Assembly: GCA_030827475.1 (NCBI GenBank)
Contig: JAUREJ010000008.1
Coordinates: 95 to 64,094 of the forward strand
Origin: Poseidonia sp.
GTDB lineage: Archaea > Thermoplasmatota > Poseidoniia > Poseidoniales > Poseidoniaceae
Direction of reading: 5' to 3'
DNA: 64,000 bases
The notes beneath the pieces were generated by a model, which saw only the letters and a program-made list of their open reading frames with translations, ran no database searches and was not told where the DNA came from. The first letter of the stretch is position 1, and each line of letters starts with the position of its first letter. Shown here in pieces: positions 11,068-55,779 of this stretch. Position numbers and translations under genes: made by a program.

Positions 11068-14000
11068 TCAAGCCGCCTTGTTTTTCGCAAGGTTGCAAAT
11101 CGCTCGAGACTGCTCCGCAGTCCACCCTGTTTCTTGAAGTTGCATCAGCACGCTGCGCTCTTGGTCACCGTCTGCAATTGCACCCATCACCCATTCCACG
11201 GCGGATTCTCGGTCAGCACGTTGCCAGTCCTCAAAGATGCTCAAATCAACCTGAATCTTCGCCTTTCGAACCTTCGCTGAGGAGGCCTCAACGACCGAAT
11301 TCACCGACTTTTTCTTCGCCACTTTTTGCACGGGCTCTGGTTTTGCCGACGACTCCTGATCCGGGCCGCTTTGAGGGGGGCCGCCTCCGCCACGCTTTGG
11401 CGGGCCTGCATTGGCTTTGGGAGGGCCACCCGGGCCGGCTCGTGAAGGAGAAGGACGGCTGTTGGCAGGTCCGCGGGGCTCGCCAGAGTTTGACGATGGT
11501 GCAGGGCGTGAACGAGCGGGAGCGGCCCGTTTTGCATCCAACTTATCGAGGAAACTCTCCTCATTGTCGTCGTCAAAGAATTCATCGTAGGCATCATCAT
11601 CTTCGTCATCGTCCTCACGGCCTGAGCGCAACACTACGAGAAGACCCAACAAGATGACGAGCCCGACCGCTCCACCGGCGACCATCAGCATGCCAGCATC
11701 CAATCCAAACAATCCAGCATCACCATCGCCGGAGACCGCTACGTAGGGGCAACCGTCGTCGTACCCGTCAACGCCTTTCGGATCGTTAGGGCAGTTGTCC
11801 TCATTGTCCTTGACACCGTCATAATCCGAGTCCCGTTCGGAGGGATGACACCCGTCCCCGTCCAGTTGGCCCAACAGGCCCGAAAGCGTGGTTGGGCAGA
11901 GGTCAGCGTTGGTGGCACCTTCGATAAATTCGCCGGGCCAGCTTGGGTCACGGTGTGGGGTCCACGATGCGTCACCCCAGTTGTCACCCAAGCCATCGAA
12001 ATCAGAATCTTTCCATTGCGTGGGGTTGTTTTGGAGGGTTTCCGGTTCCAAGAAGTCGGCCCAACCGTCGCCGTCATCGTAACAACCAGGGACGTCCATG
12101 AACGACGTACCTGCTTCGGCCGAGCAGAAGTCAGCGTTCTGAGCGCCTTGAATAAACACACCCGGCCATGAAGGGTCGCGAGAATTGTTCCACGACACCG
12201 TGCCCCAATTGTCCCCAAGACCATCTCCATCGGAGTCAAACCATTGGGTGGGGTCAGACGGGAAGGCATCGCCGGTTTGGTTGACATGAAGCCCCGTGAT
12301 GGGGTCAATGTCGTAACTGTATGCACCAGCAAAACCGTCGCCATCGATGTCCTCGGTCAATGCACTCTCGTCGGTGCAGCCATTTTCAAGAATCGGGAAG
12401 CCGGGTGGCGTGTCGTCACAGGCATCGTCAAGGTCCGACAACCCGTCTCCGTCGCTGTCGCGTTGGGCCTGTGAACAACCGAATTCGTCAACGCTTTCGC
12501 CCACCTCCGTGTTGGGACAACGGTCCTCGGGGTCGTTCAAGCCGTCCCCGTCCGAGTCTGAAGTTCGTTGCTCAGCGCTGCAACCATCTCCGTCGACCGT
12601 CACGCCCGTCGGCGTCTCGGAACAGAGGTCATCATTGTTCTTGACGCCGTCTTCGTCGTCGTCCAACTCGGATTGAGCGCATCCGTCCTCGTTGACCACC
12701 TCACCAGCCGGACTGTTGGGGCAGATGATATCGAGATCGTTGATCAGGCCGTCCCCGTCGTTGTCTTGAAGGTCAATGACGCGGCAACCCACACCGTTCG
12801 TTCCGTTGAAAACGCCGAATTCAAACGGACATTCATCCGCGTTTTCGCCCAGAGGGTTATCGCCAAACCCGTCCCCGTCCGTGTCAGAGGTCTGCGTTTT
12901 GTCAAGAGGGAAGGCGTCACCAATCTGATTTTCTCGCAGACCGCTGGTTTGGTTTGTCTCGTAGGCGTATTGGTCGGTGAAGCCATCGCCGTCCGAATCA
13001 AGACATCCGTAGACCGGCACCGTGGAATTGCCCCAAACTTCTGGGCACTGGTCCAATTCAAGACCTTCTTTGTACGAGGTTTTGGGGAACGTGAGGTTGG
13101 CTGCTTGGTCCTCGTCGCACCCGTTTGGACCAATCGGAAGCGAGGGGTCGGATTCAACGCACATGTCGTTGAGGTTGATGACTCCGTCGTTGTCGTCGTC
13201 CATCGTGGCAAAGGCCGTCCAATTGTCGGCATAGCCATCGCCATCCGTGTCGTTTGCCGCCACGATGCGCAGTGGGAAACGGTCGGGGAGCGTGGCGTTC
13301 TCGGATTGGTTATCACCGAAGCCGTCACCGTCGGTGTCGGTCCATTGCGTCGGGTCAAAAGGCCAAACATCAGCGCCAAGTTCGATGTTCCATTCAAAGA
13401 ACGTCCCCTCGTCTGAAGGGTCACTTGCGCCATCCCCGTCGGAGTCCAGACAACCGTTTCGGTCTCGCCACGAAGCGCCCCAGTCCCAAGGGCAGAAGTC
13501 GCCGTACACCGTATCGGTGTCGTTATCGCCAAAGCCATCCCCGTCGTAATCAGCGTATTGCGAAGCGATGTAAGGGAACAAATCTCCGGGACCGGCGTTC
13601 GGGTCCAACTCAACGGAACAACAGTCCACGCCGTGATTGTCACCAAACCCGTCACCATCGGTGTCGAGCGCTTGTTTCCAGTTACCTTTGTAGACATCGC
13701 CGTCAAAGTATGTGGCCCCGTTGTCTGACCAACCGTCCTGGTCAAGGTCCTCACAACCGTACCGGTCGATCCATGAGGTCCCTCCGGAGGAATCGCAACC
13801 GTCGATGTCATCGGAGAAGCCGTCCATGTCGAAATCCGCGCACCCGTAAACGACGTACGAGGAGGGACCGGCCGCCGAAGGGCACTGGTCGGCAAGCGGT
13901 CCCAGAGGGTTGTCACCGAAACCGTCCCCGTCGCCGTCAGACCATTGGTTTCCAACCGCAGGCATCTCGTCAACCAAGTCAAAAACAAGATCCCGGTCTT

Positions 14001-17000
14001 GGTCGGCGTAAAGTCGAAGAAGAACTGCATCGTTGTTGACTTCGTCCCAATACGCAAGGTGAACGGTCCCGTTGCTGTCAACGACCGCATCCACCGGGTG
14101 GTTGGTCACGATGTCCCCGAAGCGGACGGACATCCAGGGCGCATAACCAGCGTGAACGCCGTCGAGTTCAGCGGTGTTCACCACAAGGTGATTGGATACG
14201 GGGTCGCTGGTCAACAAGAGAAGATGGTCGCCCATGTGGAGAACATCCCAAGCCCCGTCCACCGCAGCAGCCGGTCGTTCGGTCAACGTGACCCAATCAC
14301 CGGTGCTGTTGGGAGCGAGGAGGGAGGAGACGGCGTTTGCCCGAACGGCCAAAAGCGGTTGGTCACCGCCCTCGAGGTCGAGACGGTATTCGTTGGCGGT
14401 GCCGCTGGGTTGCAGCACGGTGTGCGATTGCCAAACGGTGTCGCCTGGCCATTGCTCGTAAAGGGCGAGGGCCCCCGTTGTGCTGAGGGAAGCGAGAAGG
14501 AGAGATCCGTTGGCAAGCGTGGTGAGCCCAAGTTGGGTCCCGTGGTCGGACATGTTGCCGATGGTTTGTTTGATCAGCGTCGTGCCGTTATGCATCCAAA
14601 CCGCAAGGTTGGTGCCGGTGCCGTTGGAAGCGACCAAGGCCACGGCGAGCGTGTCGTTGGCGAGCATAACAGCAGGGTGTTGGGTGGACACCGCTTCCGC
14701 GACGGAGCCCAAGGAGGTCAGCGTCCAACTGCCTCCTCCGGTCGCCCGTTCGAGTTGTCCCGTCGAGGCATGTCGATAGACGAGGTGCGGCACATCGTTG
14801 CTGTCAAACAAGACTTCGATTCCGTTGGCGAGTTGGGCTCCCGTTCGGACCAGGTCGGTGACCCAGCCTGATGCCGTTTGCTCGCTGGCGTAGATTTGTT
14901 GACCTGAACCTGATGTGTAAGCAAGAACTTGTTCGTTGCCCTGATTCACGTTTGAGCCGATGTATTGGCCCATGGTTCCCGTCGTAGCCACGGCTTGTTC
15001 AACCGCCGTCATGGAGCGAGTGGTGTGGAGATGGATGGCATCGTCATCTTCGGTGAGGAGCAGAGGGAGGCCCGAGGATTGAACGTCAAAGCGGATGGAA
15101 AGGTTGCTTGTGGTTGATCGAACCACGGTTTGGTCCACCCATTGGCCTGCGGGTGAACCGTCCATCATGTGTTCCAATTTCGCAGCGTAGGAACGCTGAG
15201 TGTCGTTGAAGGTATAGGCGATGCTCGTTTCTCCGCGGTCTGCCGTCGCCAACTCCAACGCATTGAGTTGTCCTGCATGCTCAAAGGAAATCGATTCCCA
15301 ATCGCGTTCCGACACCACCACGTAATCGAGAGCAAAGGCGCTGCCTCGGTCATCGGTGCGTTGCGAATAGACGAGGTCGCCCAACCCGTCGCCGTTGAGG
15401 TCCCCGCCGGCCGCTAGACGGAAGCCCAGTTGCTCGCTGGAATTTCCTTCTGCAAGCAATTGTTTGTCGGAACGCAAACCGTCGGCCGAACCAAGGAAGA
15501 TTTCGATGCGGCCGGCGTTTGAACCAAGCCGGCTGGTGATGTACACATCGTCGTAACCGTCGTCGTTGATGTCGCCGGCAGCTGCGATCGCTTCACCGAT
15601 TTTCGAGTTCGCCAACGTCGGGAAGTACTGCCAGTCCGCCTCGCTCGGGAAGGCAGAAGATGTTCCATCAAACAACCACAGCACCCCCGTACCGAAGACG
15701 CCGTCGGTGTTGTTGAACGGCTCCGTGATGATGTGTTCGTCGAAGCCGTCCCCGTTGAGGTCCCCCGCACAGACGATACCGTGGCCGAACAAACGACCCT
15801 GGACCAGGGATGAAATGACATGGTCGGGCGTCCCTTGGTATCCAGCGACATCGCCGTAAAAATATTCAATGGAGGAGTAAGAGAGCGGAGATGCATACGA
15901 ACCGGTGTTTGCGACGATGAGTTCAGCAAGGCCGTCCCCGTTCAAATCGCAGCCTTCGAGCGTTCGACCAAACATCGAACCGTCGCCGGTCTGGGTGAGG
16001 TTTCGCACCAACGTAAGCCCAGTTTCGCCACCGTCGTACACGTTGACTTTCCCGGTGTGGGTGACCGATGTACTGACCTCGAGAGCGTAGCCGTGAGCAG
16101 CGCCGGCAAGCCCGTCGGCGGCAGAGTCCTGATGCAAGGTGGTGACGGTGGAACCCAAGGATTCGTTACCGGACCCGTTGATCGTCCATGAAGGTGCGGA
16201 GGGTAGACCTGCTGGCGAGCCCAAATGCACCGTGAGGCGGCCGTCATTTTGGTTGGTAGAACCGCTGAGGTCCCATCCAGGCGCCCCGATGAGAAGGTCC
16301 TCTACACCGTCGTTGTTGTAGTCACCCACGTCAACGCCTTGCCCATAGTGCTCTCCATCCCCGCTTCCCGCAAGAATGGTGCTCGGCACGGCCTCCAATC
16401 CTGCCGAGGAACCGTAGTACACTTCGACACGACCGTTATCGGTGAACCCCACCATGTCTGCGGTGGGGGTGCTGATGAGGAGGTCATCAAACCCGTCGCC
16501 GTTGAAATCGGCCATGGCGATGCTGCCTTCCGCTTCGTCTGCCGTACCTTCACGATGGTCGGTGGGAACGGGGTCGACACGCCCAGTGTCTTGACCGGCA
16601 AGCGAACGAATGAGGTTGATCGAGAAGGTGGAGCCGATTTGGGTGGCTGTAGCGATTTGCTCAATGGCATTTGCGTCGAGATCCATCCCCAGGGCGTCGA
16701 CGAGGGCTGCGTTTCGGTCGAGGATGCTCACGTCGTGCTCACCGTCAGCAATGCGGAGCAAGACCACTTCGTTTGCGGTTGACCGGCTGTAGAGGATGTG
16801 AGCGGTGCCGTTGGCGTCCAACGCCAACTCAAAGTCTTCACCGACAGGACCGGCATCGAGCAGGAAGGTGGTCCAGTAAGCGCCGCTGAAGTTGACCTGA
16901 TGAAGCGCACCGTCCGCAGTCCGCACCAAGCCCCATTCAACCCCGTTTGGCGTGATTTCGAGCTCAATGTGCGTTGGCGAAATGTCTTCAAGAATCGTCC

Positions 17001-17574
17001 GAGTATGCCATGTTGGCCCTTCCCAGTACACTTGGCTCGTCCTTGCAAAACGGCCCACCTTGAGGTCGTCCCCGTCGGCGTAGAGGACACGCGGGAGTTC
17101 GTTGGCCGTAACGGCGATAGCACAATCCACAAGAGCGGAGGTGTTGGCGGAAGCGACGGTGTCGACAAGCGTCGTGCTCCAAAACCCGTTGGGGCGATGA
17201 ATCGCCGTCCGGACCGCTCCCTGCTCGGTCGACCAGCAGTAATGTTCCTTGTCCGTGCGCGTCAGTTTCATGTCGGGTGTCCCGTGATGTTCCGTGCTCG
17301 AGTTGTTCAGCTCCGTTGAAATCCAGTAGTCAAACATGGATTCCTCCCGAACAACAGCATTGTCCAAACCGTCAACGCTGATGGCCGTTCCTGCAAATTC
17401 ATGACTTGAGCCCTCGGTCAACGAGAACGCAGCGTTAAGACGAACGTCCGGATGGGGGGCAAGTTCCTCCATCGTTGCCGCAGGAGGGGCCAGAGGTGTT
17501 GCGAGAGAGCAGAGGAACAGAAGGACGAGAAGGACGCTTTTTGGATCTGAATTTTGATTCGTGGCGTCCGACAT
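11068..17574 (-). CDS. giant type-I surface protein (FG-GAP beta-propeller + thrombospondin type-3 Ca-binding repeats + C-terminal TM + 186-aa cytoplasmic tail)
   Basis: Continuous 2179-codon ORF. Signal-like segment KSVLLVLLFLCSLATPLAPPAA, seven FG-GAP repeats, >15 DxDxDGxxDxxD repeats, TM AGMLMVAGGAVGLVILLGLLVVL followed by RSGREDDDEDDD. Start ATG 17574 is preferred because an AT-rich box lies ~30 nt upstream. ATG 17607 is an alternative. Confidence 0.85.
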   Translation of the reverse strand: MSDATNQNSDPKSVLLVLLFLCSLATPLAPPAATMEELAPHPDVRLNAAFSLTEGSSHEFAGTAISVDGLDNAVVREESMFDYWISTELNNSSTEHHGTPDMKLTRTDKEHYCWSTEQGAVRTAIHRPNGFWSTTLVDTVASANTSALVDCAIAVTANELPRVLYADGDDLKVGRFARTSQVYWEGPTWHTRTILEDISPTHIELEITPNGVEWGLVRTADGALHQVNFSGAYWTTFLLDAGPVGEDFELALDANGTAHILYSRSTANEVVLLRIADGEHDVSILDRNAALVDALGMDLDANAIEQIATATQIGSTFSINLIRSLAGQDTGRVDPVPTDHREGTADEAEGSIAMADFNGDGFDDLLISTPTADMVGFTDNGRVEVYYGSSAGLEAVPSTILAGSGDGEHYGQGVDVGDYNNDGVEDLLIGAPGWDLSGSTNQNDGRLTVHLGSPAGLPSAPSWTINGSGNESLGSTVTTLHQDSAADGLAGAAHGYALEVSTSVTHTGKVNVYDGGETGLTLVRNLTQTGDGSMFGRTLEGCDLNGDGLAELIVANTGSYASPLSYSSIEYFYGDVAGYQGTPDHVISSLVQGRLFGHGIVCAGDLNGDGFDEHIITEPFNNTDGVFGTGVLWLFDGTSSAFPSEADWQYFPTLANSKIGEAIAAAGDINDDGYDDVYITSRLGSNAGRIEIFLGSADGLRSDKQLLAEGNSSEQLGFRLAAGGDLNGDGLGDLVYSQRTDDRGSAFALDYVVVSERDWESISFEHAGQLNALELATADRGETSIAYTFNDTQRSYAAKLEHMMDGSPAGQWVDQTVVRSTTSNLSIRFDVQSSGLPLLLTEDDDAIHLHTTRSMTAVEQAVATTGTMGQYIGSNVNQGNEQVLAYTSGSGQQIYASEQTASGWVTDLVRTGAQLANGIEVLFDSNDVPHLVYRHASTGQLERATGGGSWTLTSLGSVAEAVSTQHPAVMLANDTLAVALVASNGTGTNLAVWMHNGTTLIKQTIGNMSDHGTQLGLTTLANGSLLLASLSTTGALALYEQWPGDTVWQSHTVLQPSGTANEYRLDLEGGDQPLLAVRANAVSSLLAPNSTGDWVTLTERPAAAVDGAWDVLHMGDHLLLLTSDPVSNHLVVNTAELDGVHAGYAPWMSVRFGDIVTNHPVDAVVDSNGTVHLAYWDEVNNDAVLLRLYADQDRDLVFDLVDEMPAVGNQWSDGDGDGFGDNPLGPLADQCPSAAGPSSYVVYGCADFDMDGFSDDIDGCDSSGGTSWIDRYGCEDLDQDGWSDNGATYFDGDVYKGNWKQALDTDGDGFGDNHGVDCCSVELDPNAGPGDLFPYIASQYADYDGDGFGDNDTDTVYGDFCPWDWGASWRDRNGCLDSDGDGASDPSDEGTFFEWNIELGADVWPFDPTQWTDTDGDGFGDNQSENATLPDRFPLRIVAANDTDGDGYADNWTAFATMDDDNDGVINLNDMCVESDPSLPIGPNGCDEDQAANLTFPKTSYKEGLELDQCPEVWGNSTVPVYGCLDSDGDGFTDQYAYETNQTSGLRENQIGDAFPLDKTQTSDTDGDGFGDNPLGENADECPFEFGVFNGTNGVGCRVIDLQDNDGDGLINDLDIICPNSPAGEVVNEDGCAQSELDDDEDGVKNNDDLCSETPTGVTVDGDGCSAEQRTSDSDGDGLNDPEDRCPNTEVGESVDEFGCSQAQRDSDGDGLSDLDDACDDTPPGFPILENGCTDESALTEDIDGDGFAGAYSYDIDPITGLHVNQTGDAFPSDPTQWFDSDGDGLGDNWGTVSWNNSRDPSWPGVFIQGAQNADFCSAEAGTSFMDVPGCYDDGDGWADFLEPETLQNNPTQWKDSDFDGLGDNWGDASWTPHRDPSWPGEFIEGATNADLCPTTLSGLLGQLDGDGCHPSERDSDYDGVKDNEDNCPNDPKGVDGYDDGCPYVAVSGDGDAGLFGLDAGMLMVAGGAVGLVILLGLLVVLRSGREDDDEDDDAYDEFFDDDNEESFLDKLDAKRAAPARSRPAPSSNSGEPRGPANSRPSPSRAGPGGPPKANAGPPKRGGGGPPQSGPDQESSAKPEPVQKVAKKKSVNSVVEASSAKVRKAKIQVDLSIFEDWQRADRESAVEWVMGAIADGDQERSVLMQLQETGWTAEQSRAICNLAKNKAA
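11728..13950 (-). repeat. thrombospondin type-3-like calcium-binding repeat region (protein-level repeats)
   Basis: Approx. aa 1220-1960 of the ORF. Repeated DSDGDGLNDPEDRCP, DNDGDGLINDLDIICP, DTDGDGFGDN, often paired with Cys. Confidence 0.75.
15298..16545 (-). repeat. seven FG-GAP/integrin-alpha-like repeats (protein-level)
   Basis: Approx. aa 355-770 of the ORF. ADFNGDGFDDLLIS, GDYNNDGVEDLLIGAPG, CDLNGDGLAELIVA, GDLNGDGFDEHIIT, GDINDDGYDDVYIT, GDLNGDGLGDLVYS. Confidence 0.7.
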
Positions 17575-17622
17575 GTCCCCTTCACATCCTCCGTCCTTGA
17601 AAATCATTGTTCACCGCGGCCT

Positions 17623-17697: not shown

Positions 17698-18336
17698 ATG
17701 GCCGAGCGCATATGGGTCATCCTCACGGGAGGGGAATGGTGCCCTTTGCACCGTTTGGAGCCTTGGCTTGGCCTCGCCACCTCGGTCGTTGCCTGCGACG
17801 GGGCCTTGAACCTCGCACAAGAACGGGGTGTCCAAGTGAATGTCGTCATGGGCGACATGGACAGCGTGGGTGCTGAGGAGTTGAAAACCCATATCAAGAA
17901 GGGAGGCGAGGTTCAGAAACTCAGTGGACAAAACGACAACGACCTTGCAAAAGCCCTGAGACAGGCTGCTGCAAATGACGTCGAAAGATGCGTGGTGGTT
18001 GGAGCCACCGGCGGGGACCTTCACCATGCTTGGGCCAACCTCTTGGAATGCAGTCGAGCTCCGATGGAGGTGGATTGTCTCGGCCCTCTTGAGGTTCACC
18101 GGTTCATCAAACCGTCCAAGAAGACCTCTATAGAAATTGAACTTGGGTCGGTTTTTTCCATCTTTACGCTGAGCGAAGCACGCGGTGTTTTCCTCCACGG
18201 TGCTGAATGGGAACTGAACGGGACCACCCTCGGGGCAAGTTCCCGTGGACTCCACAATCGAGCGACTGAAACCTCGATCGAAATCGAATTTGAAGCAGGG
18301 CAACTCTTCGTTTTACACGGCTACTTTGACGACTGA
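17698..18336 (+). CDS. thiamine pyrophosphokinase
   Basis: 212 aa from ATG 17698 (the track start at 17668 is TTG). MAERIWVILTGGEW, VACDGA, the GDMDS motif, and a C-terminal beta-sandwich-like half. TTGAGAAGG box at 17668. Confidence 0.8.
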   Translation: MAERIWVILTGGEWCPLHRLEPWLGLATSVVACDGALNLAQERGVQVNVVMGDMDSVGAEELKTHIKKGGEVQKLSGQNDNDLAKALRQAAANDVERCVVVGATGGDLHHAWANLLECSRAPMEVDCLGPLEVHRFIKPSKKTSIEIELGSVFSIFTLSEARGVFLHGAEWELNGTTLGASSRGLHNRATETSIEIEFEAGQLFVLHGYFDD

Positions 18337-19184
18337 GGAAGAAAAGAGCGGAGCATGGCGGAATAATCGCTTTGTCCGTCCCACTCCTGCGCCCTTTCGT
18401 CGATGCGGGCCGCTTCAAGCGTCTGCTCAAATCCACCCCAATCTTCGATCAATTTCAGCCTGTAGGCCGCTTTTGGGGTGTACCCGGGAAGGAAATTTCG
18501 CCAAATGAAAGGAATGCGTCCCGGCGTGACTTGATTCACGATTCGAACGATGGAAGTGTTGCACGTCGTCAACAAGGAGTGGTACCACTCTGGTGATTGA
18601 GCGAGTTGATTCAGTTTTCCAATCAACCCCAGCAACAAAGCCTTGTCCTTCCCTGGCGGCGTGATGGCTCGAAACATGTAATCCTTGTTTTTCCGACCAT
18701 GAGTTCGCAGTCCTGTTACGTCGCGTTCAAAGCCCACGAGCAGGTAGAGTTCGTAAGCTCGCCACATGCCGTCCCAAGGGTGGTATCGCTCGCCTTTTTC
18801 TCGTCGTGTCTCGAACGAGAAGGAGAGGCTCGTGCCGTCCTCAAAATCAAACGTCAAATAGGTGTGCGCCAAACCTTTGAGGGCGTGAAAATGGTCGACG
18901 ACGAACCAGATATCCTTGAGTTCATCCAACTTGACCTTGACCTCAGGCGCCCAATTCTCGTCGCGGTCACGGGTGGTGCGCCAGGTGAAATCACGCACCA
19001 TGTGAAAGGTGATGTCGTTGCCGTCGACGGTAGCGGTGGTCAAGTGCTCGCAATCAGCAGCCCACTCAAGGTCAAGCGATGGCTGCAACGGACGGATTCG
19101 AGTTCGCCAAACATAGAGGAGCCGTAAGCCGATTACTCCCCCAAAAAAGGCCACTGCGAGGCCGATTATTTCCAGCGGCGTCAT
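18321..19184 (-). CDS. membrane-anchored DUF4105-like protein
   Basis: 287 aa from ATG 19184, which forms an ATGA overlap with the stop of the upstream gene. N-terminal TM LEIIGLAVAFFGGVIGLRLLYVW followed by RTRIR. The body resembles DUF4105 (..VVDHFHALKGLAHTYLTFDF...RAYELYLLVG..). Confidence 0.65.
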   Translation of the reverse strand: MTPLEIIGLAVAFFGGVIGLRLLYVWRTRIRPLQPSLDLEWAADCEHLTTATVDGNDITFHMVRDFTWRTTRDRDENWAPEVKVKLDELKDIWFVVDHFHALKGLAHTYLTFDFEDGTSLSFSFETRREKGERYHPWDGMWRAYELYLLVGFERDVTGLRTHGRKNKDYMFRAITPPGKDKALLLGLIGKLNQLAQSPEWYHSLLTTCNTSIVRIVNQVTPGRIPFIWRNFLPGYTPKAAYRLKLIEDWGGFEQTLEAARIDERAQEWDGQSDYSAMLRSFLPQSSK

Positions 19185-20485
19185 TGTTCCCACCCGTGCC
19201 AAATCTGCCAGTCCGCATCCCACCAATCCAGTTTTCCATCCGGGTGCTGGCGCCACATGACGCCCTGGTCGTCGGTGATGACAGGAAGGCCCATCGGGTC
19301 AGGACGGCCGTCCGCAAGCACCTGAGGAGCAGGACCGAGATGGGGTATATCGAGGGGTTCGACACGACGCTTCCCCGTGAAAGCAAGGAAGACGAAAACC
19401 GTGACGACGAGCGCCAGAAGGCCGATGGAGAGCCAACCCACGGATTCAGTAGGCGTGTTCTCACCAAGCGAGGTGGAGGGGGCGGTCGCCGTCTCGTCCT
19501 CACCTGCGTTTGGATTTGGAAGTCGAATCAGATTCACGCCCGCCGTTGAGGAGATCATCTTCTCGTTCATCACCTCGAGGCTGATAAGGTACGCCCCGGC
19601 CGGAAGTTCAGAGCAATCCAAAGACGAGGTGTTTGCGCCTTCGACCAGCTTTCCTTTGATTCGCCAGTTCTTGGTCCACATCGCCGAAGCTGACGCATCT
19701 TCGGTGACCATCTTCACCTTGCACGGCAAGTTCGTGGTGTTCTCATGGCCGAGCAAGGTTAACGTGAATTGAGGGGCAGGGCGGTTTGTGATGGTGAAGT
19801 TGAGGTTGGCTTCGGTCGTCTGACCCAATCCGTTCCGGTAAGTTTCACGCAATGCGTATGTGCCGGCTGGCCAAGATGAACAATCCAGCGTACCGTGGGC
19901 ATCCAGCACGCTGAAGGGCGCTCCTGAAAAGGTCCGAACGCCCGTCTCTCCGTACCTTGGCCCGGTCTCATCGGAGAAAACGCGTGTGACCTGACAGGCT
20001 TCTCCTGTCTGAATCGATGGCCCTGCCTCAAGATTGAGTTGGACCATCGGCACTTGAAGTGCTGGCGTCAAAACAAAGGTTGGAAGTGGGTTGGACGCGA
20101 TGAATTCCCCGTCATCGTCAAAGAAATCCAGCCGCAAACGGTGCTCGCCCTTGGACCAAGCATCGTAGACCAGAGAAAGGTTTGTTTGACCGGAAAAAGA
20201 AATTTCGGCCACCTCGAGCACCTCACGCTCCTTGTGAAGGCCCCGTAGTTTGACGATGAGGTCGTTCTGGGCTGAGGTTGAATTGAGCACAACCACCACC
20301 CGAACGGCATCGATATCACCGTCCTGGTCGGTGTCAATGGTGTCGTTGCGCAGCGCCAACACGGTCAATCCCTGCTCCGCAAGGCGTTCTTCGGTGGTCA
20401 GTTCAGCGGCAACCACCGTCAAGGGGCTCAGCAGGGTGAGCATGAACACCACGGCGGCGCCCCATGCCAGGGTCTTCTCACGCAT
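19181..20485 (-). CDS. type-I surface protein with Ig/PKD-like domains and Trp-rich WW-like cytoplasmic tail
   Basis: 434 aa from ATG 20485, with SD GGAGGTG at 20498-20492 and 6-nt spacing. The track start 20494 is GTG. Signal peptide MREKTLAWGAAVVFMLTLLSPLTVVAAE, TM WLSIGLLALVVTVFVFLAFTG then KRR, tail ...GVMWRQHPDGKLDWWDADWQIWHGWEQ. Overlaps the upstream gene by 8 nt. Confidence 0.75.
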   Translation of the reverse strand: MREKTLAWGAAVVFMLTLLSPLTVVAAELTTEERLAEQGLTVLALRNDTIDTDQDGDIDAVRVVVVLNSTSAQNDLIVKLRGLHKEREVLEVAEISFSGQTNLSLVYDAWSKGEHRLRLDFFDDDGEFIASNPLPTFVLTPALQVPMVQLNLEAGPSIQTGEACQVTRVFSDETGPRYGETGVRTFSGAPFSVLDAHGTLDCSSWPAGTYALRETYRNGLGQTTEANLNFTITNRPAPQFTLTLLGHENTTNLPCKVKMVTEDASASAMWTKNWRIKGKLVEGANTSSLDCSELPAGAYLISLEVMNEKMISSTAGVNLIRLPNPNAGEDETATAPSTSLGENTPTESVGWLSIGLLALVVTVFVFLAFTGKRRVEPLDIPHLGPAPQVLADGRPDPMGLPVITDDQGVMWRQHPDGKLDWWDADWQIWHGWEQ

Positions 20486-23000
20486 CGCCTTCACCTCCGG
20501 GTGGTGTCAAGAGCGGTAGAGGAGGCAACGCATCGATGGGAATCAATTGAGGTACGGGCTGAGAGATCTCTGGCGACATCATCAATTCAAGGTCTTTGGC
20601 CGCCACGATTTGCTCCAAATACGCCGCCCGTTGCCGTGCGCCTCGCACGAGAAGAGCGCCAAGTGCGCCGAGCAAGAAACCGGTGCCGATAACGGCGTAG
20701 GTGAGCCAGGACGCTGCCGGGTCCTCGCCCATGATGGCGATAGCGGCGGCGAACTCACCGTACTGATTTGACCAGCCGTCGCCGTTGTCGTCGGGACACC
20801 CTTGAACGTCCCGTTTTGAGGTGCCCGCTTCGTTGGGGCAATCGTCGCGGAACGCCCCGAGCGGTAAGTCACCAAAGCCGTCTTGGTCGGAATCCTTCCA
20901 CTGCAGGGCTTCGGTTGGAAACGCATCTGCACTTCCAAAGGGGTGGGCTGGCCAGGAGGGGGTGGGGTCGGACCAGCCGTCGCCGTCCGTATCTCGGCAT
21001 CCAAGCCGGTCGAGCAGGGATGTCCCTCGGGTCTCCGGGCAGGCATCTCCTTGGTGACCCGTTTGCCGGTCGCCGTAACCGTCACCGTCGGAATCCCGCC
21101 ATTGAGTCGGCTCGTGAATGAAGGCATCTCCGAGGTCGGACCAACCATCGCCGTCCGTGTCCTTGCAGCCCCATCGGTCGCCACCTGAGGACGGACCAAC
21201 AGAGGTTCCGGCGACCTCTGGACAAACGTCTGCGGTCGTACCTCTCGGGTTGTCGCCTCGACCGTCACCGTCAGCGTCGTGCCATTGTGTAGGGTCTTGA
21301 GGCCAAGCATCACCTGAACCGCCCGGACTTGCCAGCCACGCTGCGGTCGGGTCCGACCATCCATCGCCATCGCCATCAGGGCATCCCCACCGGTCAAAGG
21401 TCGAATTTCCAAAGGTGGTGCGACAACCGTCGGGACGGGAAGAGGCCCGCCAGGTTTGCCCGTCGAAGTATTCCGTGTTGTCGCCGAAGCCATCGTCATC
21501 CGTATCGTGCCATTGCGAGGCGTCCTCAGGGAAGGCATCGGCAAAACCAGCCGGATGCGATGCCCACAAGGCGGTCGGGTCGGAGTAACCGTCGCTGTCG
21601 ATGTCGCGGCATCCCAACCGGTCAAAACGGCTGATCCACCCTGAATCGACTTCTTCAGGCGTGGATTCGGGGCACACATCGCCTTCAAAACCCGTCAAAT
21701 TGTCCCCGTAACCGTCCCCATCGGAATCTCTGAATTGCGAGGGAACAAAGGGGAAATCATCGATTTGGGTCGCACCGTAGGTCTGGTTGTCCCCCCAGCC
21801 GTCCCGATCCGTATCACGCCACTGCGTCGGATTAAAGGGAAAGTCATCGATGCGTTGTGCTCCCTGGGTTTGGTTATCACCCCAGCCGTCGCGGTCGCTG
21901 TCCAGCCACTGTGTAGGTTCGAGTGGAAAAGCATCCGAGCCGTTGTCTTGGGTCCAGTTTTCATCGCCGTCGGAATACGCATCGCCGTCGGAGTCAGGAC
22001 AGCCGAAACGGTCAGCAAAGGAACCCCCTCGAACGAACGGACATGCGTCCGGTTCAGTAGCGTTGTCGACGAAAATGCCGATGTCCCAAAGGTACCTCGT
22101 GATGTTCAGCGAGGCATCAGCCCAATTGTCCCCGTAACCGTCCTCATCGGTGTCGTTCCATTGGGTCACGTCGCTGGCAAAGGCGTCAGCCTTGCCCACG
22201 GGGTGGGCGTACCATGGGATGAATCCGTTCAAGCCTCCGGGGTCTGGGTCGGAATATCCGTCACCGTCCGAATCGATGCACCCAAAGCGGTCGGCCAACG
22301 AATAGCCTCGGCTGTAGGTGCAATGGTCGCCTTGGAAGCCATCGATGTTATCGCCGTAGCCGTCGTTGTCGGAATCCAACCATTGGGTGGCTTCGTTGGC
22401 AAAGGCATCTGCACCGTTCTGCACCCCCCATCCGCTGTCAGGGTCCGACCAGCCGTCACCGTCGTTATCGGTGCAGCCTTTTCGGTCGTTTGTGGAGGTG
22501 CCCACGAGGTTGACGCAGTCGTCCTCGGTGTCGATGAACCCGTCTTCGTCGGTGTCGCGGTTGGTCTTGTCGATGCTTGGCGTGAGCGTGTAATCAAAAC
22601 CGTCGTTGCACCAAGAGTCCCCGCCTTCCACCTTGAGCAAAATTTCCCCAGCGGTTGCAAGAGTCGTTGAAAGAGATGCTGTCGGATTGGTATCGTCAAC
22701 GTTGGATGTGATGGAGCCCATGGTGAAGGTCCCGATCCATCCATCGCCCGGGCACCACCAAGCAGCGTTGTTCATGCTCCCGGAGAACGAAACACGAACG
22801 ATGTCGCCTTTCTTCCCCTGAATTTTCCAATAGTCGGTTTTGTCGGTGGGTGAACAACCGTCGGGGTCACAGACGTACCCGCTGGAGGAGACGCCGTCGG
22901 TCAGCCCGTTCGCACTGGTTGGAGAATTGTCAGCAGCCACCGTGGGGAGGTGACTGAAAAAAAGCGCCGCAAGGAAAGCCACCAAGACGGTGCGACGCAT
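20478..23000 (-). CDS. secreted PPC-domain + TSP3-like Ca-binding repeat protein with C-terminal TM anchor
   Basis: 840 aa. Signal MRRTVLVAFLAALFFSHLPTVAA. N-terminal PPC-like domain (DKTDYWKIQGKKGDIVRVSFSG...LKVEGG...YTLT). About 12 units of D.DGDG(W/Y)SDP...ADAFP.(D/E).TQW.D.D.DG.GDN. TM TYAVIGTGFLLGALGALLV. Confidence 0.8.
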   Translation of the reverse strand: MRRTVLVAFLAALFFSHLPTVAADNSPTSANGLTDGVSSSGYVCDPDGCSPTDKTDYWKIQGKKGDIVRVSFSGSMNNAAWWCPGDGWIGTFTMGSITSNVDDTNPTASLSTTLATAGEILLKVEGGDSWCNDGFDYTLTPSIDKTNRDTDEDGFIDTEDDCVNLVGTSTNDRKGCTDNDGDGWSDPDSGWGVQNGADAFANEATQWLDSDNDGYGDNIDGFQGDHCTYSRGYSLADRFGCIDSDGDGYSDPDPGGLNGFIPWYAHPVGKADAFASDVTQWNDTDEDGYGDNWADASLNITRYLWDIGIFVDNATEPDACPFVRGGSFADRFGCPDSDGDAYSDGDENWTQDNGSDAFPLEPTQWLDSDRDGWGDNQTQGAQRIDDFPFNPTQWRDTDRDGWGDNQTYGATQIDDFPFVPSQFRDSDGDGYGDNLTGFEGDVCPESTPEEVDSGWISRFDRLGCRDIDSDGYSDPTALWASHPAGFADAFPEDASQWHDTDDDGFGDNTEYFDGQTWRASSRPDGCRTTFGNSTFDRWGCPDGDGDGWSDPTAAWLASPGGSGDAWPQDPTQWHDADGDGRGDNPRGTTADVCPEVAGTSVGPSSGGDRWGCKDTDGDGWSDLGDAFIHEPTQWRDSDGDGYGDRQTGHQGDACPETRGTSLLDRLGCRDTDGDGWSDPTPSWPAHPFGSADAFPTEALQWKDSDQDGFGDLPLGAFRDDCPNEAGTSKRDVQGCPDDNGDGWSNQYGEFAAAIAIMGEDPAASWLTYAVIGTGFLLGALGALLVRGARQRAAYLEQIVAAKDLELMMSPEISQPVPQLIPIDALPPLPLLTPPGGEGDA

Positions 23001-53862: not shown

Positions 53863-54246
53863 ATGCGTGTCTTGGCGTTCGAGGATCACTACGACATCGA
53901 AGCCATGCTCGTTGCTGGCGGCGTGAACACCGAAGGGTGGGTCATCGAGCAGCGATGGAATTCAAGCGATGCTCTCCAGCACATCGAGGCCTTCACACCC
54001 GACGTGCTGCTGCTCGACCATTACATGCCGCCGGTCACTGGACGCGAAGTGCTCAAAGCGCTCTTGGCTTCTTCCGTGAGGCGGCCTACGACCATCGCAG
54101 CCATCTCCAGCGACCCGTCAAAAAACGAGGCCATGTGCACGCTTGGGGCCAACCTTGCCGTGGTGAAGTTCGAGGTGCACCGCTTGCCCTGTTGGACCTC
54201 GGTTGAGGAGGAGGCCCCCCGGAAGGACGCTCAGTCCTCGTCGTAG
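53863..54246 (+). CDS. single-domain response regulator (REC only)
   Basis: 127 aa. MRVLAFEDH (acidic pocket), VLLLDHYMP (phospho-acceptor Asp), AAISSD, VVKF (Lys). SD-like TGAGG 7 nt upstream. Confidence 0.75.
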   Translation: MRVLAFEDHYDIEAMLVAGGVNTEGWVIEQRWNSSDALQHIEAFTPDVLLLDHYMPPVTGREVLKALLASSVRRPTTIAAISSDPSKNEAMCTLGANLAVVKFEVHRLPCWTSVEEEAPRKDAQSSS

Positions 54247-54956
54247 GGCTGCCACTCGGTTTGACCTTCTTCTCGGTACCACCAGTAGCCGTCTTCGTCT
54301 TCGAACCATTCGACGCCGTTCTCGTCGATGGAGTAACTGTCGTCGTCGTACTCTTCCTCTTCGACTTCTTCTTCAACGGCCGCATTCGGGTCAGCGATAC
54401 CGCTCTCTTCGGCGATGCGGCGCTTGGCGTCGTCCACATCGGACTCGGCGCCACCGAAAACGCGGTTTGAGGTGCGAATTTCGGCTTGGTGGTCGCCCTG
54501 TCGGATGGCGTTATCGGATTCTTCGTAGAATTCCTCGGTCATGCGCTCCCTGAACTCGTCAAACTCATCTCGGCCAAAACTACCGGTGAATTCGTCGCCT
54601 TTGGCCCGCATCAAGTCGTCCAAGTTGGTTCGTTTTCCAAGGTTCAATTCAGGTGCATCGGGAAGGTCGCCAGCGTAGAAACCGTCTTCCTCGGTGCCCA
54701 CCTTGCCGAAAACCCGTCCTTCGGGGTCGGCTTCTTCAATGGCTTCGATAATCAAATCGTGCTCCTCTTGATCGATGGTCTCTTCCTCGTACGCATCACC
54801 CACAGTGTCGACCAGTGCGTCGAGTTGGGATGCGAGTTGGTCTTCATCGTCCTCGAATTGTTCCGAGAGTTTCTCAACCTGCTTCAGCAAGCGCTCGTAG
54901 GGGGTTCCCGTGATGGCCCCGAGGAATCGACCGAAGCCGCCTTTTTTCTTCGCCAT
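54231..54956 (-). CDS. highly acidic soluble protein with C-terminal WW-like Trp motif
   Basis: 241 aa from ATG 54956 (MAKKKGGFGRFLG...). Very Asp/Glu-rich. C-terminus ENGVEWFEDEDGYWWYREEGQTEWQPYDED. TTGAAGAA box 29 nt upstream (54985-54978). Confidence 0.65.
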   Translation of the reverse strand: MAKKKGGFGRFLGAITGTPYERLLKQVEKLSEQFEDDEDQLASQLDALVDTVGDAYEEETIDQEEHDLIIEAIEEADPEGRVFGKVGTEEDGFYAGDLPDAPELNLGKRTNLDDLMRAKGDEFTGSFGRDEFDEFRERMTEEFYEESDNAIRQGDHQAEIRTSNRVFGGAESDVDDAKRRIAEESGIADPNAAVEEEVEEEEYDDDSYSIDENGVEWFEDEDGYWWYREEGQTEWQPYDED

Positions 54957-55032
54957 GAAGGTGCGTTCCGCTGACACTTCTTCAAAGATTGTCCTGCGTG
55001 GGACTTTTGACGGGCGAATGCATGGAGCGGTC

Positions 55033-55779
55033 ATGGTGGAGGCGTGGCTGGTCGAGTTGATGACCGCCTACAACCGGGACTCCCGAAGCCAACGCAACGG
55101 CTACCTCGCTCAATTGCACCTGCCCGGCGAGGTGTTCCAATCCTTGGTGTGGTGGGCGTTGCAATCCTTACCCGATGAAATCCTGGTCGGCATGGACGTG
55201 GACCCCGACCAACCTCACCGCAAGGAGGTGGAGGCTTATTTTGAGGGCGACGAGGTGCACGAACGCCTGTTCCAAGGACAGGGCTATGTCGTGAAAGAGG
55301 CACGCATCGTCAATCGGGGCGATTCCTACTCCGTCCATCACCTCCCGGAGGATTGGACAGACGACATGTTCTCTGCCGACCGAGGCTCACGAGCCGGACG
55401 CTTCACGCACTGGCTTCACACCCACCCGAACGCCCCCGCCATCCCCAGCGGAGCGGACGCCGATGCTGCTCAGGAAACCCCCGGCATCGACATGATTCTC
55501 GGCTTGCGCTTCACGCCCGAGGGGCCGCTGCCGTGGTTTGACGACGTCGAAGGCACGCGGCGAAAACTTTCGGCAGAGGTTGAACCTCAGCCGCGCAAGC
55601 GGTCGTTTTTCGCTCGTCACGCCCTTCCCATTTTAGGTCGAGCACCCACCGGTCACGCCATTCATGAAATCCAACTCATCGGGTTTCACAAATCGGGGGT
55701 GGCCGTAAACGTCGTCTTCGTGGATGGGGAAGGCTATCCGTTTGGATGGGACCGCTCGACCGCTCAGCTGCTGGTTTGA
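55033..55779 (+). CDS. JAMM/MPN+ metalloprotease-domain protein
   Basis: 248 aa from ATG 55033 (TTTTGAC box at 55005; alternative ATG 55018). JAMM motif HTHPNAPAIPSGAD at nt 55417-55458, with upstream Glu in PDEILVGM. Confidence 0.75.
   Translation: MVEAWLVELMTAYNRDSRSQRNGYLAQLHLPGEVFQSLVWWALQSLPDEILVGMDVDPDQPHRKEVEAYFEGDEVHERLFQGQGYVVKEARIVNRGDSYSVHHLPEDWTDDMFSADRGSRAGRFTHWLHTHPNAPAIPSGADADAAQETPGIDMILGLRFTPEGPLPWFDDVEGTRRKLSAEVEPQPRKRSFFARHALPILGRAPTGHAIHEIQLIGFHKSGVAVNVVFVDGEGYPFGWDRSTAQLLV

What the first reader, a model, noticed from the sequence alone, without database searches (positions are those of the whole stretch)
19184..19273. Shared WW-domain-like Trp motif at the C-termini of two unrelated proteins
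The cytoplasmic tail of the 434-aa surface protein ends DDQGVMWRQHPDGKLDWWDADWQIWHGWEQ. The soluble acidic protein (54231-54956; motif at nt 54234-54323) ends DENGVEWFEDEDGYWWYREEGQTEWQPYDED. Both share G-V-x-W-x4-D-G followed by a WW/WWY aromatic cluster and a further Trp. The second copy also has T-x-W-x-P. The pattern has a first Trp, a DG turn, an aromatic strand and a T..W..P ending. It parallels the eukaryotic WW domain consensus (GWe....dGr.YY.nh.T..t.W..P) with one-residue shifts. Several cytoplasmic segments in the window are Pro-rich (the adhesin tail PPKANAGPPKRGGGGPP and the QQPPP repeats). A small Pro-peptide-binding module linking surface-protein tails to soluble partners is therefore conceivable.
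Basis: partly seen in the sequence, partly recalled or inferred. Interest (0 to 1): 0.6.

Follow-up and report, generated by a model that had tools for sequence, protein, structure and literature searches.

The report
Trp-rich cytoplasmic tail cap, Poseidoniales
A small tryptophan-rich folded module ends the intracellular tails of several giant surface proteins of an abundant ocean archaeon and also ends one soluble protein; it is real and uncatalogued, is not a WW domain by the tests run, and probably serves as a shared docking handle inside the cell.

Summary
Both motifs are in the sequence as described. The genome is a Candidatus Poseidonia (Marine Group II archaeon).

The soluble protein's tail belongs to a strongly conserved module of about 33 residues, consensus VDEDGTEWWEDEDGxWWYR....DWxxW.
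- It gave 221 cluster representatives, and 143 of the 150 listed carry it within 6 residues of the C-terminus.
- It sits after a signal peptide, ectodomain, one membrane helix and an acidic linker, so it is cytoplasmic.
- It was found in 130 of 201 Poseidoniales genomes, all-or-none by genus, and in 0 of 237 other Thermoplasmatota genomes.

The 437-aa protein's tail is a separate conserved subfamily. HMMs do not link it to the canonical module and profile-profile comparison gives only P=9e-4. Its spacing, its position and its predicted fold are the same.

AlphaFold2 predicts a four-stranded beta-meander for both tails (pLDDT 84 and 91). Fold searches return only weak matches to single beta-propeller blades and list no WW domain. 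The Pfam WW and DUF2510 models do not match.

The body of the soluble protein is found only where the module is found (5 of 5 against 0 of 5 genomes).

Most likely this is a cytoplasmic docking handle. The partner is unknown and proline binding is untested. This scan had already noted such tail caps in other Poseidoniales genomes.

The parts
54234..54335 (-). Canonical Trp-rich tail module: the last 34 residues of the soluble protein, with four predicted strands
   Evidence: AF2 gives pLDDT 84 overall and above 90 in the core, with strands at residues 9-11, 17-20, 26-29 and 37-39 of the 42-aa segment 54234-54359. It scores 56.4 bits against an HMM built from other genomes, and 0 of 2000 shuffles reach that.
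54231..54956 (-). Gene for the soluble acidic 241-aa protein that carries the module. No Pfam or NCBIfam family matches it.
   Evidence: It has 466 relatives at E<=0.001, all hypothetical proteins of Poseidoniales where named. The body without the module is found in 5 of 5 module-positive and 0 of 5 module-negative genomes. Contigs from RNA libraries cover it in 4 of 4 runs laid.
54867..54956 (-). Conserved basic and hydrophobic N-terminus of the soluble protein (MAKKKGGFGRFLG.ITG.PY..LL)
   Evidence: It is nearly invariant across three families in alignment A5. Its role is unknown.
19184..19285 (-). Divergent Trp-rich tail cap (437-type): the last 34 residues of the surface protein
   Evidence: It forms a conserved subfamily of 14 sequences with 75% mean column identity. 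AF2 gives pLDDT 91.1, with strands at residues 9-12, 18-21, 27-31 and 36-40 of the segment 19184-19309. hhalign against the canonical profile gives P=9e-4.
19286..19369 (-). Cytoplasmic linker between the membrane helix and the cap
   Evidence: Read from the sequence. Basic residues (KRR) follow the helix, which places the tail inside the cell.
19370..19447 (-). Single C-terminal transmembrane helix of the 437-aa protein
   Evidence: Hydropathy scan, residues 354-379 of the stop-to-stop frame.
19181..20494 (-). Gene for the type I surface protein: signal peptide, ectodomain of about 320 aa with weak PKD/E-set-like hits, membrane helix and tail

Best explanation
The motif is a self-folding mini-domain of about 33 residues. 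It is a four-stranded antiparallel beta-meander in which acidic D-x-D-G turns join Trp/Tyr-rich strands. Invariant or near-invariant positions are D13, G16, E18, W19, D22, G25, W27, W28, R30 and W37, plus an aromatic residue at position 40.

In Poseidoniales it is tethered by a flexible acidic linker of 20-240 residues to the inner face of the membrane. It sits at the end of a fixed set of otherwise unrelated type I surface proteins, 3-10 per genome, with integrin-like FG-GAP, CBM96/Ig, Reelin-like and other ectodomains. It also sits at the end of one conserved soluble acidic protein.

I think it works as a common cytoplasmic docking handle. Its aromatic faces bind a shared intracellular partner, or each other. 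This would couple, cluster or position this subset of envelope proteins, with the soluble protein acting as adaptor or competitor.

Shown here: the family, its position, its cytoplasmic side, its distribution, and the co-occurrence with the soluble protein's body.
Inferred: the fold (prediction only), the docking function, and every statement about partners.

The 437-aa protein's cap is a second, divergent version with the same predicted topology. Common descent with the canonical module is possible but not shown.
For: Family and conservation:
- 221 cluster representatives at E<=0.001 among 1.84 billion proteins.
- Near-invariant core positions in 147 modules.

Position and side of the membrane:
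- 143 of the 150 listed representatives have it within 6 residues of the C-terminus.
- 5 of the 6 carriers in this genome have a signal peptide, a large ectodomain, one membrane helix, basic residues and then an acidic tail.
- 72 representatives have a membrane helix upstream, and their linkers are 18% Glu and 15% Asp.
- In cluster P0217 (8 members) the module is N-terminal, ahead of a signal-anchor helix, so it is again on the cytoplasmic side.

The carriers have unrelated ectodomains.

Fold: AF2 gives pLDDT 84 and 91 for the two tails, four strands each.

Distribution:
- 130 of 201 genomes of the order, all-or-none in 24 genera.
- 0 of 237 genomes of other families in the phylum.

Link to the soluble protein:
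- Its module-free body is present in 5 of 5 positive genomes at E 1e-42 to 1e-53 and in 0 of 5 negative genomes.
- The 3062-aa carrier behaves likewise, 5 of 5 against 0 of 5.

Bacterial relatives carry the module as 4-5 tandem copies in the predicted cytoplasmic tail of a protein with type I layout. hhalign gives probability 95.7%, E=9e-9, over 31 ungapped columns. Tandem copies are the usual pattern of an interaction module.
Against: - No partner is identified.
- The fold is a prediction for a 42-residue peptide, and fold searches give only non-significant matches (Foldseek E>=0.24, VIA Z<=4.5).
- The module and its linkers are very acidic, so a basic or cation-bridged partner would be needed, and none is known.
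- Co-loss with the soluble protein and the carriers in small-genome genera may reflect general genome streamlining rather than a functional link. Related genomes are not independent observations.
- The conserved neighbour gene (JAMM-like, adjacent in 5 of 5 positive genomes) is also present in 4 of 5 negative genomes, so it gives no lead.
Confidence: 0.5

Rival explanations
1. It works like a WW domain. The aromatic sheet binds polyproline-type peptides. Candidates are the invariant PPLP of the second, order-wide tail family, or the (PxGPx)n tracts in some linkers. That would cross-link tails and the soluble adaptor.
For: - Aromatic beta-sheet surfaces are typical polyproline binders (established knowledge of WW, SH3 and GYF domains and the CPAP G-box).
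- A tail family with an invariant PPLP..GLP.GW motif is found in 201 of 201 genomes.
- Pro-rich tracts lie next to the module in the 3062-aa family and in both bacterial relatives.
- One bacterial repeat gives a sub-threshold Pfam WW hit, E=0.0038, 17.7 bits against a cut-off of 26.9.
Against: - The PPLP family persists in all 71 genomes that lack the module, so it does not depend on it.
- Only 6 of 72 linkers are Pro-rich.
- There is no Pfam WW match to any archaeal tail.
- Binding was not tested.
Confidence: 0.12
2. It is a homotypic assembly unit. Blade-like sheets from several tails and from the soluble protein stack or form a ring together, clustering the carriers.
For: - The best, though weak, matches by sequence and by structure are single beta-propeller blades of the PknD/Pizza type: whole-sequence E=1.8e-4 but no single repeat match is significant (i-E about 110 each), Foldseek TM 0.64, VIA Z 4.3-4.5.
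- Trp residues alternate along the strands, so both faces of the sheet would be aromatic (inference).
- The same module on membrane tails and on a soluble protein is the pattern of homotypic adaptor domains.
Against: - All structural matches are below significance, and a four-stranded meander is a very common arrangement.
- Net charge of roughly -10 per module would oppose self-association unless cations bridge it.
- No oligomer prediction was run.
Confidence: 0.15
3. It is a transient sorting, insertion or quality-control signal, read once by a machine in the way C-terminal sorting tags are, and not a standing docking site.
For: - It lies at the extreme C-terminus in 143 of 150 representatives.
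- It is carried only by envelope proteins plus one soluble protein.
Against: - It lies after the membrane helix and a long linker, unlike the known tags, which are motif, helix and basic tail (recalled).
- It also occurs N-terminally (P0217), in tandem (P0122) and on a soluble protein.
- A confidently predicted folded domain is unusual for a cleaved signal.
Confidence: 0.08
4. The two window motifs are not homologous. The 437-type cap and the canonical module are independent Trp-rich mini-folds that converged on a similar hairpin pattern. This reading is orthogonal to the function question.
For: - Reciprocal HMM searches fail.
- 92 of 2000 shuffles reach the real score.
- BLASTP gives E=0.094.
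- hhalign probability is only 23%.
Against: - The spacing of six key positions is identical and so is the position in the protein.
- The same four strands are predicted.
- hhalign P=9e-4.
- No match of either type in the same seven genera, though the profile used there holds only one 437-type row.
Confidence: 0.4

Closest known systems
WW domain (Pfam PF00397)
   Same: A small antiparallel beta-sheet of about 30-35 residues built around conserved Trp and Tyr residues and a Gly turn. It is modular and occurs on many unrelated proteins. A peptide-docking role is plausible.
   Different: The Pfam model does not match. Four strands are predicted, not three. The Trp-to-Trp spacing is 18 residues, against about 20-23 in WW (recalled). 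The terminal Pro is not conserved (16% of modules, and at +2). The module is strongly acidic and sits on tails of archaeal surface proteins.
Single blades of NHL-type beta-propellers (M. tuberculosis PknD sensor domain 1RWI; designed Pizza proteins, e.g. 4ZCN and 6F0Q)
   Same: A four-stranded antiparallel meander of about 40 residues. These are the best hits in both the sequence-profile and the structure searches: VIA Z 4.3-4.5, and Foldseek rmsd 1.2-1.3 over 32 columns.
   Different: The matches are not significant. The archaeal module is a single copy, not a closed ring of 4-8 blades. It is cytoplasmic and Trp-rich.
C-terminal sorting tags of prokaryotic surface proteins (PGF-CTERM/archaeosortase A, LPXTG/sortase, PEP-CTERM/exosortase)
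   Same: A short shared sequence at the C-terminus of many unrelated envelope proteins of one lineage.
   Different: Those tags are a motif, then a membrane helix, then a basic stub, and they are cleaved (recalled). Here a folded module follows the helix and a long acidic linker, and it also occurs on a soluble protein, N-terminally and in tandem.
Cytoplasmic-tail docking of eukaryotic adhesion receptors (integrin beta tails with talin or kindlin)
   Same: Type I adhesins, one of them with an FG-GAP integrin-alpha-like propeller, carry a conserved cytoplasmic element, and there is a soluble protein linked to it by distribution.
   Different: This is an analogy only. There is no sequence or fold relation, and no cytoskeletal partner is known in these archaea.

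Membership tests
WW domain (PF00397) | Match to the family profile at or above the curated cut-off (26.9 bits) | tested here: not met
   No match at E<=10 in the genome's six frames. No WW hit for the two window tails or for the 30 aligned tails at E<=10. Only a bacterial relative, P0122, reaches 17.7 bits, E=0.0038.
WW domain (PF00397) | Two signature Trp about 20-23 residues apart, and a conserved Pro three residues after the second Trp (recalled definition) | tested here: not met
   W19 to W37 is 18 residues. Pro is at +2 in 16% of 147 modules, and position +3 is aromatic in 95%.
WW domain (PF00397) | Three-stranded antiparallel sheet | tested here: inconclusive
   AF2 predicts four strands, and the last three could correspond to the WW sheet. 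No WW chain appears in the lists, but a family that is not listed is not excluded.
WW domain (PF00397) | Binds Pro-rich or phospho-Ser/Thr-Pro peptides | not testable with these tools
   The candidate peptides are shorter than the complex tool's 30-residue minimum, and the single job went to another pair.
DUF2510 (PF10708) | Match to the family profile | tested here: not met
   No match at E<=10 in the genome's six frames or in the tails.
Beta-propeller blade (NHL / PknD / Pizza type) | Four-stranded blade repeated in tandem so that it closes a ring | tested here: inconclusive
   The shape matches only weakly: Foldseek E 0.79, VIA Z 4.3-4.5. The archaeal proteins carry one copy. P0122 carries four scored tandem copies plus one degenerate copy.
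C-terminal sorting tags (PGF-CTERM and similar) | Signature motif directly followed by a membrane helix and a short basic end (recalled) | tested here: not met
   The order here is helix, then a linker of 20-240 residues, then the module. NCBIfam gave no match above its curated cut-off and no sorting-tag model.
Canonical Poseidoniales tail module (this report's family, alignment A4) | Significant match of the 437-aa protein's tail (19184-19285) to a profile that does not contain it | tested here: not met
   1.2 bits, reached by 92 of 2000 shuffles. It is not among the hits of the A4 HMM. hhalign gives P=9e-4, probability 23%.
Canonical Poseidoniales tail module (this report's family, alignment A4) | Significant match of the soluble protein's tail (54234-54335) to a profile built from other genomes | tested here: met
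   56.4 bits, and 0 of 2000 shuffles reach it.

The most novel reading that the evidence does not exclude
Poseidoniales run an intracellular organising system for their envelope. Blade-like Trp modules on the tails of a defined set of giant adhesins and glycan binders, together with a soluble adaptor that carries the same module, assemble into a sub-membrane complex. The assembly could be with each other, or on the PPLP tags of the second, order-wide tail family. The complex would cluster the surface proteins or transmit signals from them. This would be an archaeal counterpart of the eukaryotic adhesome, gained or lost as one unit (130 of 201 genomes).
Probability: 0.15. Interest if true: 0.8.

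Novelty: new variant of a known kind. Interest (0 to 1): 0.5.

Why it matters
Marine Group II archaea are among the most abundant planktonic archaea and none is in culture, so almost nothing is known about their cell biology. A cytoplasmic module shared by otherwise unrelated giant surface proteins, plus a soluble protein that co-occurs with it, points to an undescribed link between the envelope and the cell interior. It also gives concrete reagents for finding the partner: a 34-residue peptide and a 241-residue protein. The module could be of interest to protein designers as a natural Trp-zipper-like mini-fold. The bacterial tandem versions show that the fold is not confined to archaea.

Tried and rejected
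- Complex prediction of the soluble protein (residues 2-242, alignment A5) with a canonical surface-protein tail (alignment A6): score 0.00 against a mark of 0.32, verdict 'no answer'. This is no evidence either way.
- Profile A1 against PDB sequences: only six-fold summed partial matches to Pizza/NHL designs. A 198-residue stretch of the P0122 repeats against the PDB: only a glucansucrase repeat region at E=0.089 and no WW.
- WW chains did not appear in any of the four fold-search lists.
- ESM Atlas: the whole soluble protein finds only its own unnamed clusters. The tail alone gives no usable hit.
- NCBIfam: no match above its curated cut-off, only weak unrelated hits.
- JAMM-like neighbour as a specific partner: rejected. 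It is adjacent in 5 of 5 positive genomes but also present in 4 of 5 negative genomes. There the CheY-like gene directly precedes it with no soluble gene between them.
- The idea that the soluble protein is a detached tail of a carrier: outside the module, BLASTP against the 1474-aa protein's tail gives E=1.5.
- 1474-aa ectodomain in negative genomes: 1 weak hit in 5, with no positive control run.
- Five literature searches found no description. I saw listings and abstract starts only and opened no paper.
- RNA-library contigs cover the gene in 4 of 4 runs laid. Contigs cannot prove transcription, and the uncovered flanks in runs X1 and X5 are not evidence.
- Searches were script errors and were repeated correctly.
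Full report
**What is in the sequence.** The ORF 19181-20494 (minus strand) is 437 aa from the first GTG and 434 aa from the ATG. It ends ...DDQGVMWRQHPDGKLDWWDADWQIWHGWEQ. The ORF 54231-54956 (minus strand, 241 aa) ends ...DENGVEWFEDEDGYWWYREEGQTEWQPYDED. The first protein has a signal peptide, an ectodomain of about 320 residues, one hydrophobic helix (window 19370-19447) followed by KRR, and then the tail, so the tail is cytoplasmic. The second protein has no hydrophobic segment and is very acidic. Outside the tail the two proteins share nothing, and even the tail gives only E=0.094 in a direct BLASTP. Names attached to close relatives of the soluble protein place the genome in Candidatus Poseidonia, Poseidoniales, Marine Group II.

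**A large family behind the soluble protein's tail.** A scan of the genome's six-frame ORFs found the same pattern at the extreme C-terminus of four more proteins, of 1719, 1431, 3062 and 1474 aa. All four have a large ectodomain, one C-terminal helix and an acidic tail. A hydropathy scan picked up an N-terminal hydrophobic segment in two of them (the 1719-aa and 1474-aa proteins); for the other two I read a signal peptide from the N-terminal sequence by eye. Their ectodomains are unrelated: Reelin-subrepeat-like, Ig-like, four CBM96 domains plus Ig, and FG-GAP.

A 30-tail profile searched against 1.84 billion representative proteins gave 221 hits at E<=0.001. Of the 150 listed, 143 carry the module within 6 residues of the C-terminus, and 72 have a membrane helix 20-240 residues upstream. 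Across 147 modules the core is close to invariant: D13 100%, G16 97%, E18 98%, W19 100%, D22 97%, G25 95%, W27 97%, W28 96%, Y/F29 96%, R30 96%, W37 100%, and an aromatic residue at position 40 in 95%. An HMM made only from other genomes scores the soluble tail at 56.4 bits, and none of 2000 shuffles comes near (maximum 10.5). Composition therefore does not explain it.

**The 437-aa protein's tail is a different matter.** Its high scores were circular, because it was part of the model.
- Against the independent HMM it scores 1.2 bits, and 92 of 2000 shuffles reach that.
- An HMM of its own 14 orthologues (75% mean column identity) finds only itself in the genome. The canonical HMM finds the soluble protein and the 1474-, 3062- and 1431-aa proteins (the last at E=8.6e-8, not being in the model), but neither this tail nor that of the 1719-aa protein.
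- Profile-profile comparison aligns the first hairpin only: 17 columns, P=9e-4, probability 23%.

In favour of a relation, the spacing of six key positions is identical without gaps and the position in the protein is the same. AlphaFold2 predicts the same four strands. No match of either type was found in the same genera. I therefore treat it as a divergent or possibly convergent second family.

**Fold.**
- With the 30-tail alignment, AlphaFold2 gives pLDDT 84 overall and above 90 in the core, with strands at residues 9-11, 17-20, 26-29 and 37-39 of the 42-residue segment.
- With the 437-type alignment it gives pLDDT 91.1, with strands at 9-12, 18-21, 27-31 and 36-40.

Both are four-stranded meanders with D-x-D-G-type turns. 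Foldseek and VIA-align return only non-significant matches, mostly single blades of beta-propellers (PknD, the Pizza designs, Kelch) and the CPAP G-box. The best values are E 0.24-0.79 and Z 4.3-4.5, and no WW chain is listed. The sequence-profile search of the PDB also lands only on Pizza/NHL blades, and only by summing six weak repeat matches.

**WW and DUF2510.** The Pfam models PF00397 and PF10708 find nothing in the genome at E<=10. hmmscan finds neither family in the tails at E<=10. The spacing and the terminal Pro also differ from the WW definition as I recall it (see the membership table). Family membership is therefore not supported. A WW-like way of working remains possible.

**Distribution.**
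- With the 30-tail profile, 130 of 201 sampled genomes of the order have the module. By family this is 99 of 99, 2 of 2 and 28 of 99.
- The pattern is strictly all-or-none by genus. Seven genera with small genomes (1.2-1.7 Mb) score 0 of 71, and the other 17 genera are all positive.
- With the canonical-only profile, 0 of 237 genomes from the other families of the phylum match, including 0 of 8 from the sister family in the same class.

These are samples, and related genomes are not independent observations.

**The soluble protein goes with the module.**
- Its first 202 residues, without the module, are found at E 1e-42 to 1e-53 (46-49% identity) in 5 of 5 module-positive genomes of other genera, and in 0 of 5 high-completeness module-negative genomes.
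- The 3062-aa carrier's ectodomain behaves the same way: 5 of 5, four of them full length, against 0 of 5.
- In a negative genome the CheY-like and JAMM-like genes that flank the soluble gene in the window lie directly next to each other. The JAMM-like gene is present in 4 of 5 negative genomes, so it is not a specific partner.
- The soluble protein has a nearly invariant basic N-terminus and several conserved short motifs, but belongs to no known family.

**Beyond the usual architecture.**
- A cluster of 8 proteins (P0217) carries the module at the N-terminus, ahead of a signal-anchor helix. It is again cytoplasmic, so a free C-terminus is not required.
- Two bacterial proteins carry Tyr-rich versions. 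P0122 is an unnamed metagenomic protein with type I layout that has four to five tandem copies in its predicted cytoplasmic tail, followed by Q/P/Y-rich repeats. P0268 is from an Oligoflexia MAG and has two copies.
- Their repeats align to the archaeal profile without gaps over 31 columns, with probability 95.7% and E=9e-9.
- One repeat gives a sub-threshold Pfam WW hit, E=0.0038.

**Function.** The evidence fits a standing cytoplasmic interaction module better than a cleaved sorting tag. It is predicted to fold, it sits on a flexible tether, and it occurs C-terminally, N-terminally, in tandem and on a soluble protein. What it binds is open.
Only 6 of 72 linkers are Pro-rich.
- An all-against-all comparison of tails in this genome revealed a second family with an invariant PPLP..GLP.GW(S/T)MEQW..YG motif on at least 8 other surface proteins. 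That family is present in 201 of 201 genomes. It could be a ligand, but it does not depend on the module.
- Self-assembly is suggested only by the blade-like shape and by Trp residues that would fall on both faces of the sheet.
- My single complex prediction gave no verdict.

**Expression.** Contigs from four metatranscriptome libraries of four studies cover the soluble gene at 95-100% identity. This is compatible with transcription but does not prove it.

**Novelty.** Pfam, NCBIfam, the PDB and the ESM Atlas do not hold the family. Five full-text searches found no description (listings only). Earlier notes of this scan, on other Poseidoniales genomes, had already reported Trp-rich cytoplasmic tail caps that are not WW domains and have an unknown partner. 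New in this report are:
- the co-distributed soluble carrier;
- the genus-level all-or-none pattern, with co-loss of the carriers;
- the N-terminal and the bacterial tandem forms;
- the finding that the two window motifs are not demonstrably one family.

Noticed in passing
G000 contigs C13, C19, C23, C36, C14 and C25 (loci L076-L083); not in the window: A second, unrelated tail family with an invariant PPLP..GLP.GW(S/T)MEQW..YG..WL motif ends the cytoplasmic tails of at least 8 other large surface proteins of this genome. It is found in 201 of 201 Poseidoniales genomes sampled, at 1-12 copies each. It is probably the Pro/Trp tag of earlier scan notes.
   Followed up: partly
window 11068-17607 (-) and 20478-23000 (-): The 2179-aa FG-GAP/TSP3-like adhesin and the 840-aa TSP3-repeat protein that flank the 437-aa gene have Pro-rich cytoplasmic tails (PPKANAGPPKRGGGGPP and LPPLPLLTPPGG) with other endings. 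Neither carries the Trp module.
   Followed up: no
window 53863-54246 (+) and 54910-55779 (+); L066 1142-2175: The soluble gene lies on the opposite strand between a CheY-like receiver gene and a JAMM/MPN-like gene (Prok-JAB, E=1.5e-4). In a module-negative genus these two genes abut and overlap with nothing between them, as if the soluble gene had been inserted or deleted cleanly.
   Followed up: partly
P0122 (909 aa, unnamed metagenome) and P0268 (578 aa, Oligoflexia MAG): Bacterial proteins carry tandem Tyr-rich versions of the module next to long Q/P/Y-rich low-complexity repeats.
   Followed up: partly
P0217 cluster (8 members, 322-337 aa): A type II membrane protein carries the module at its cytoplasmic N-terminus instead of the C-terminus.
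   Followed up: partly
L001 2004-2129 (-), 1719-aa protein of contig C9: Its tail (..DWVMGSDGYWWYHDKATNEWWYKDADGEIVKHP) looks like the module plus half of a second repeat and 8 extra residues. The canonical HMM does not find it. Orthologues of 1700-1800 aa in other genomes matched only the model that contained it.
   Followed up: no
representative proteins (linkers): Many carriers have a cluster of acidic and aromatic residues directly after the membrane helix (DDWDDE, DDYDDY, EDWDEDD). The 1400-1480-aa family also has a mid-linker motif (S/T)LDELK..G...APE. Neither has been studied.
   Followed up: no
window 18321-19256 (-): A 311-aa ORF directly downstream of the 437-aa gene overlaps its last 76 bases if read from its first GTG. 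Its real start is probably the internal Met near 19184. I did not examine it.
   Followed up: no
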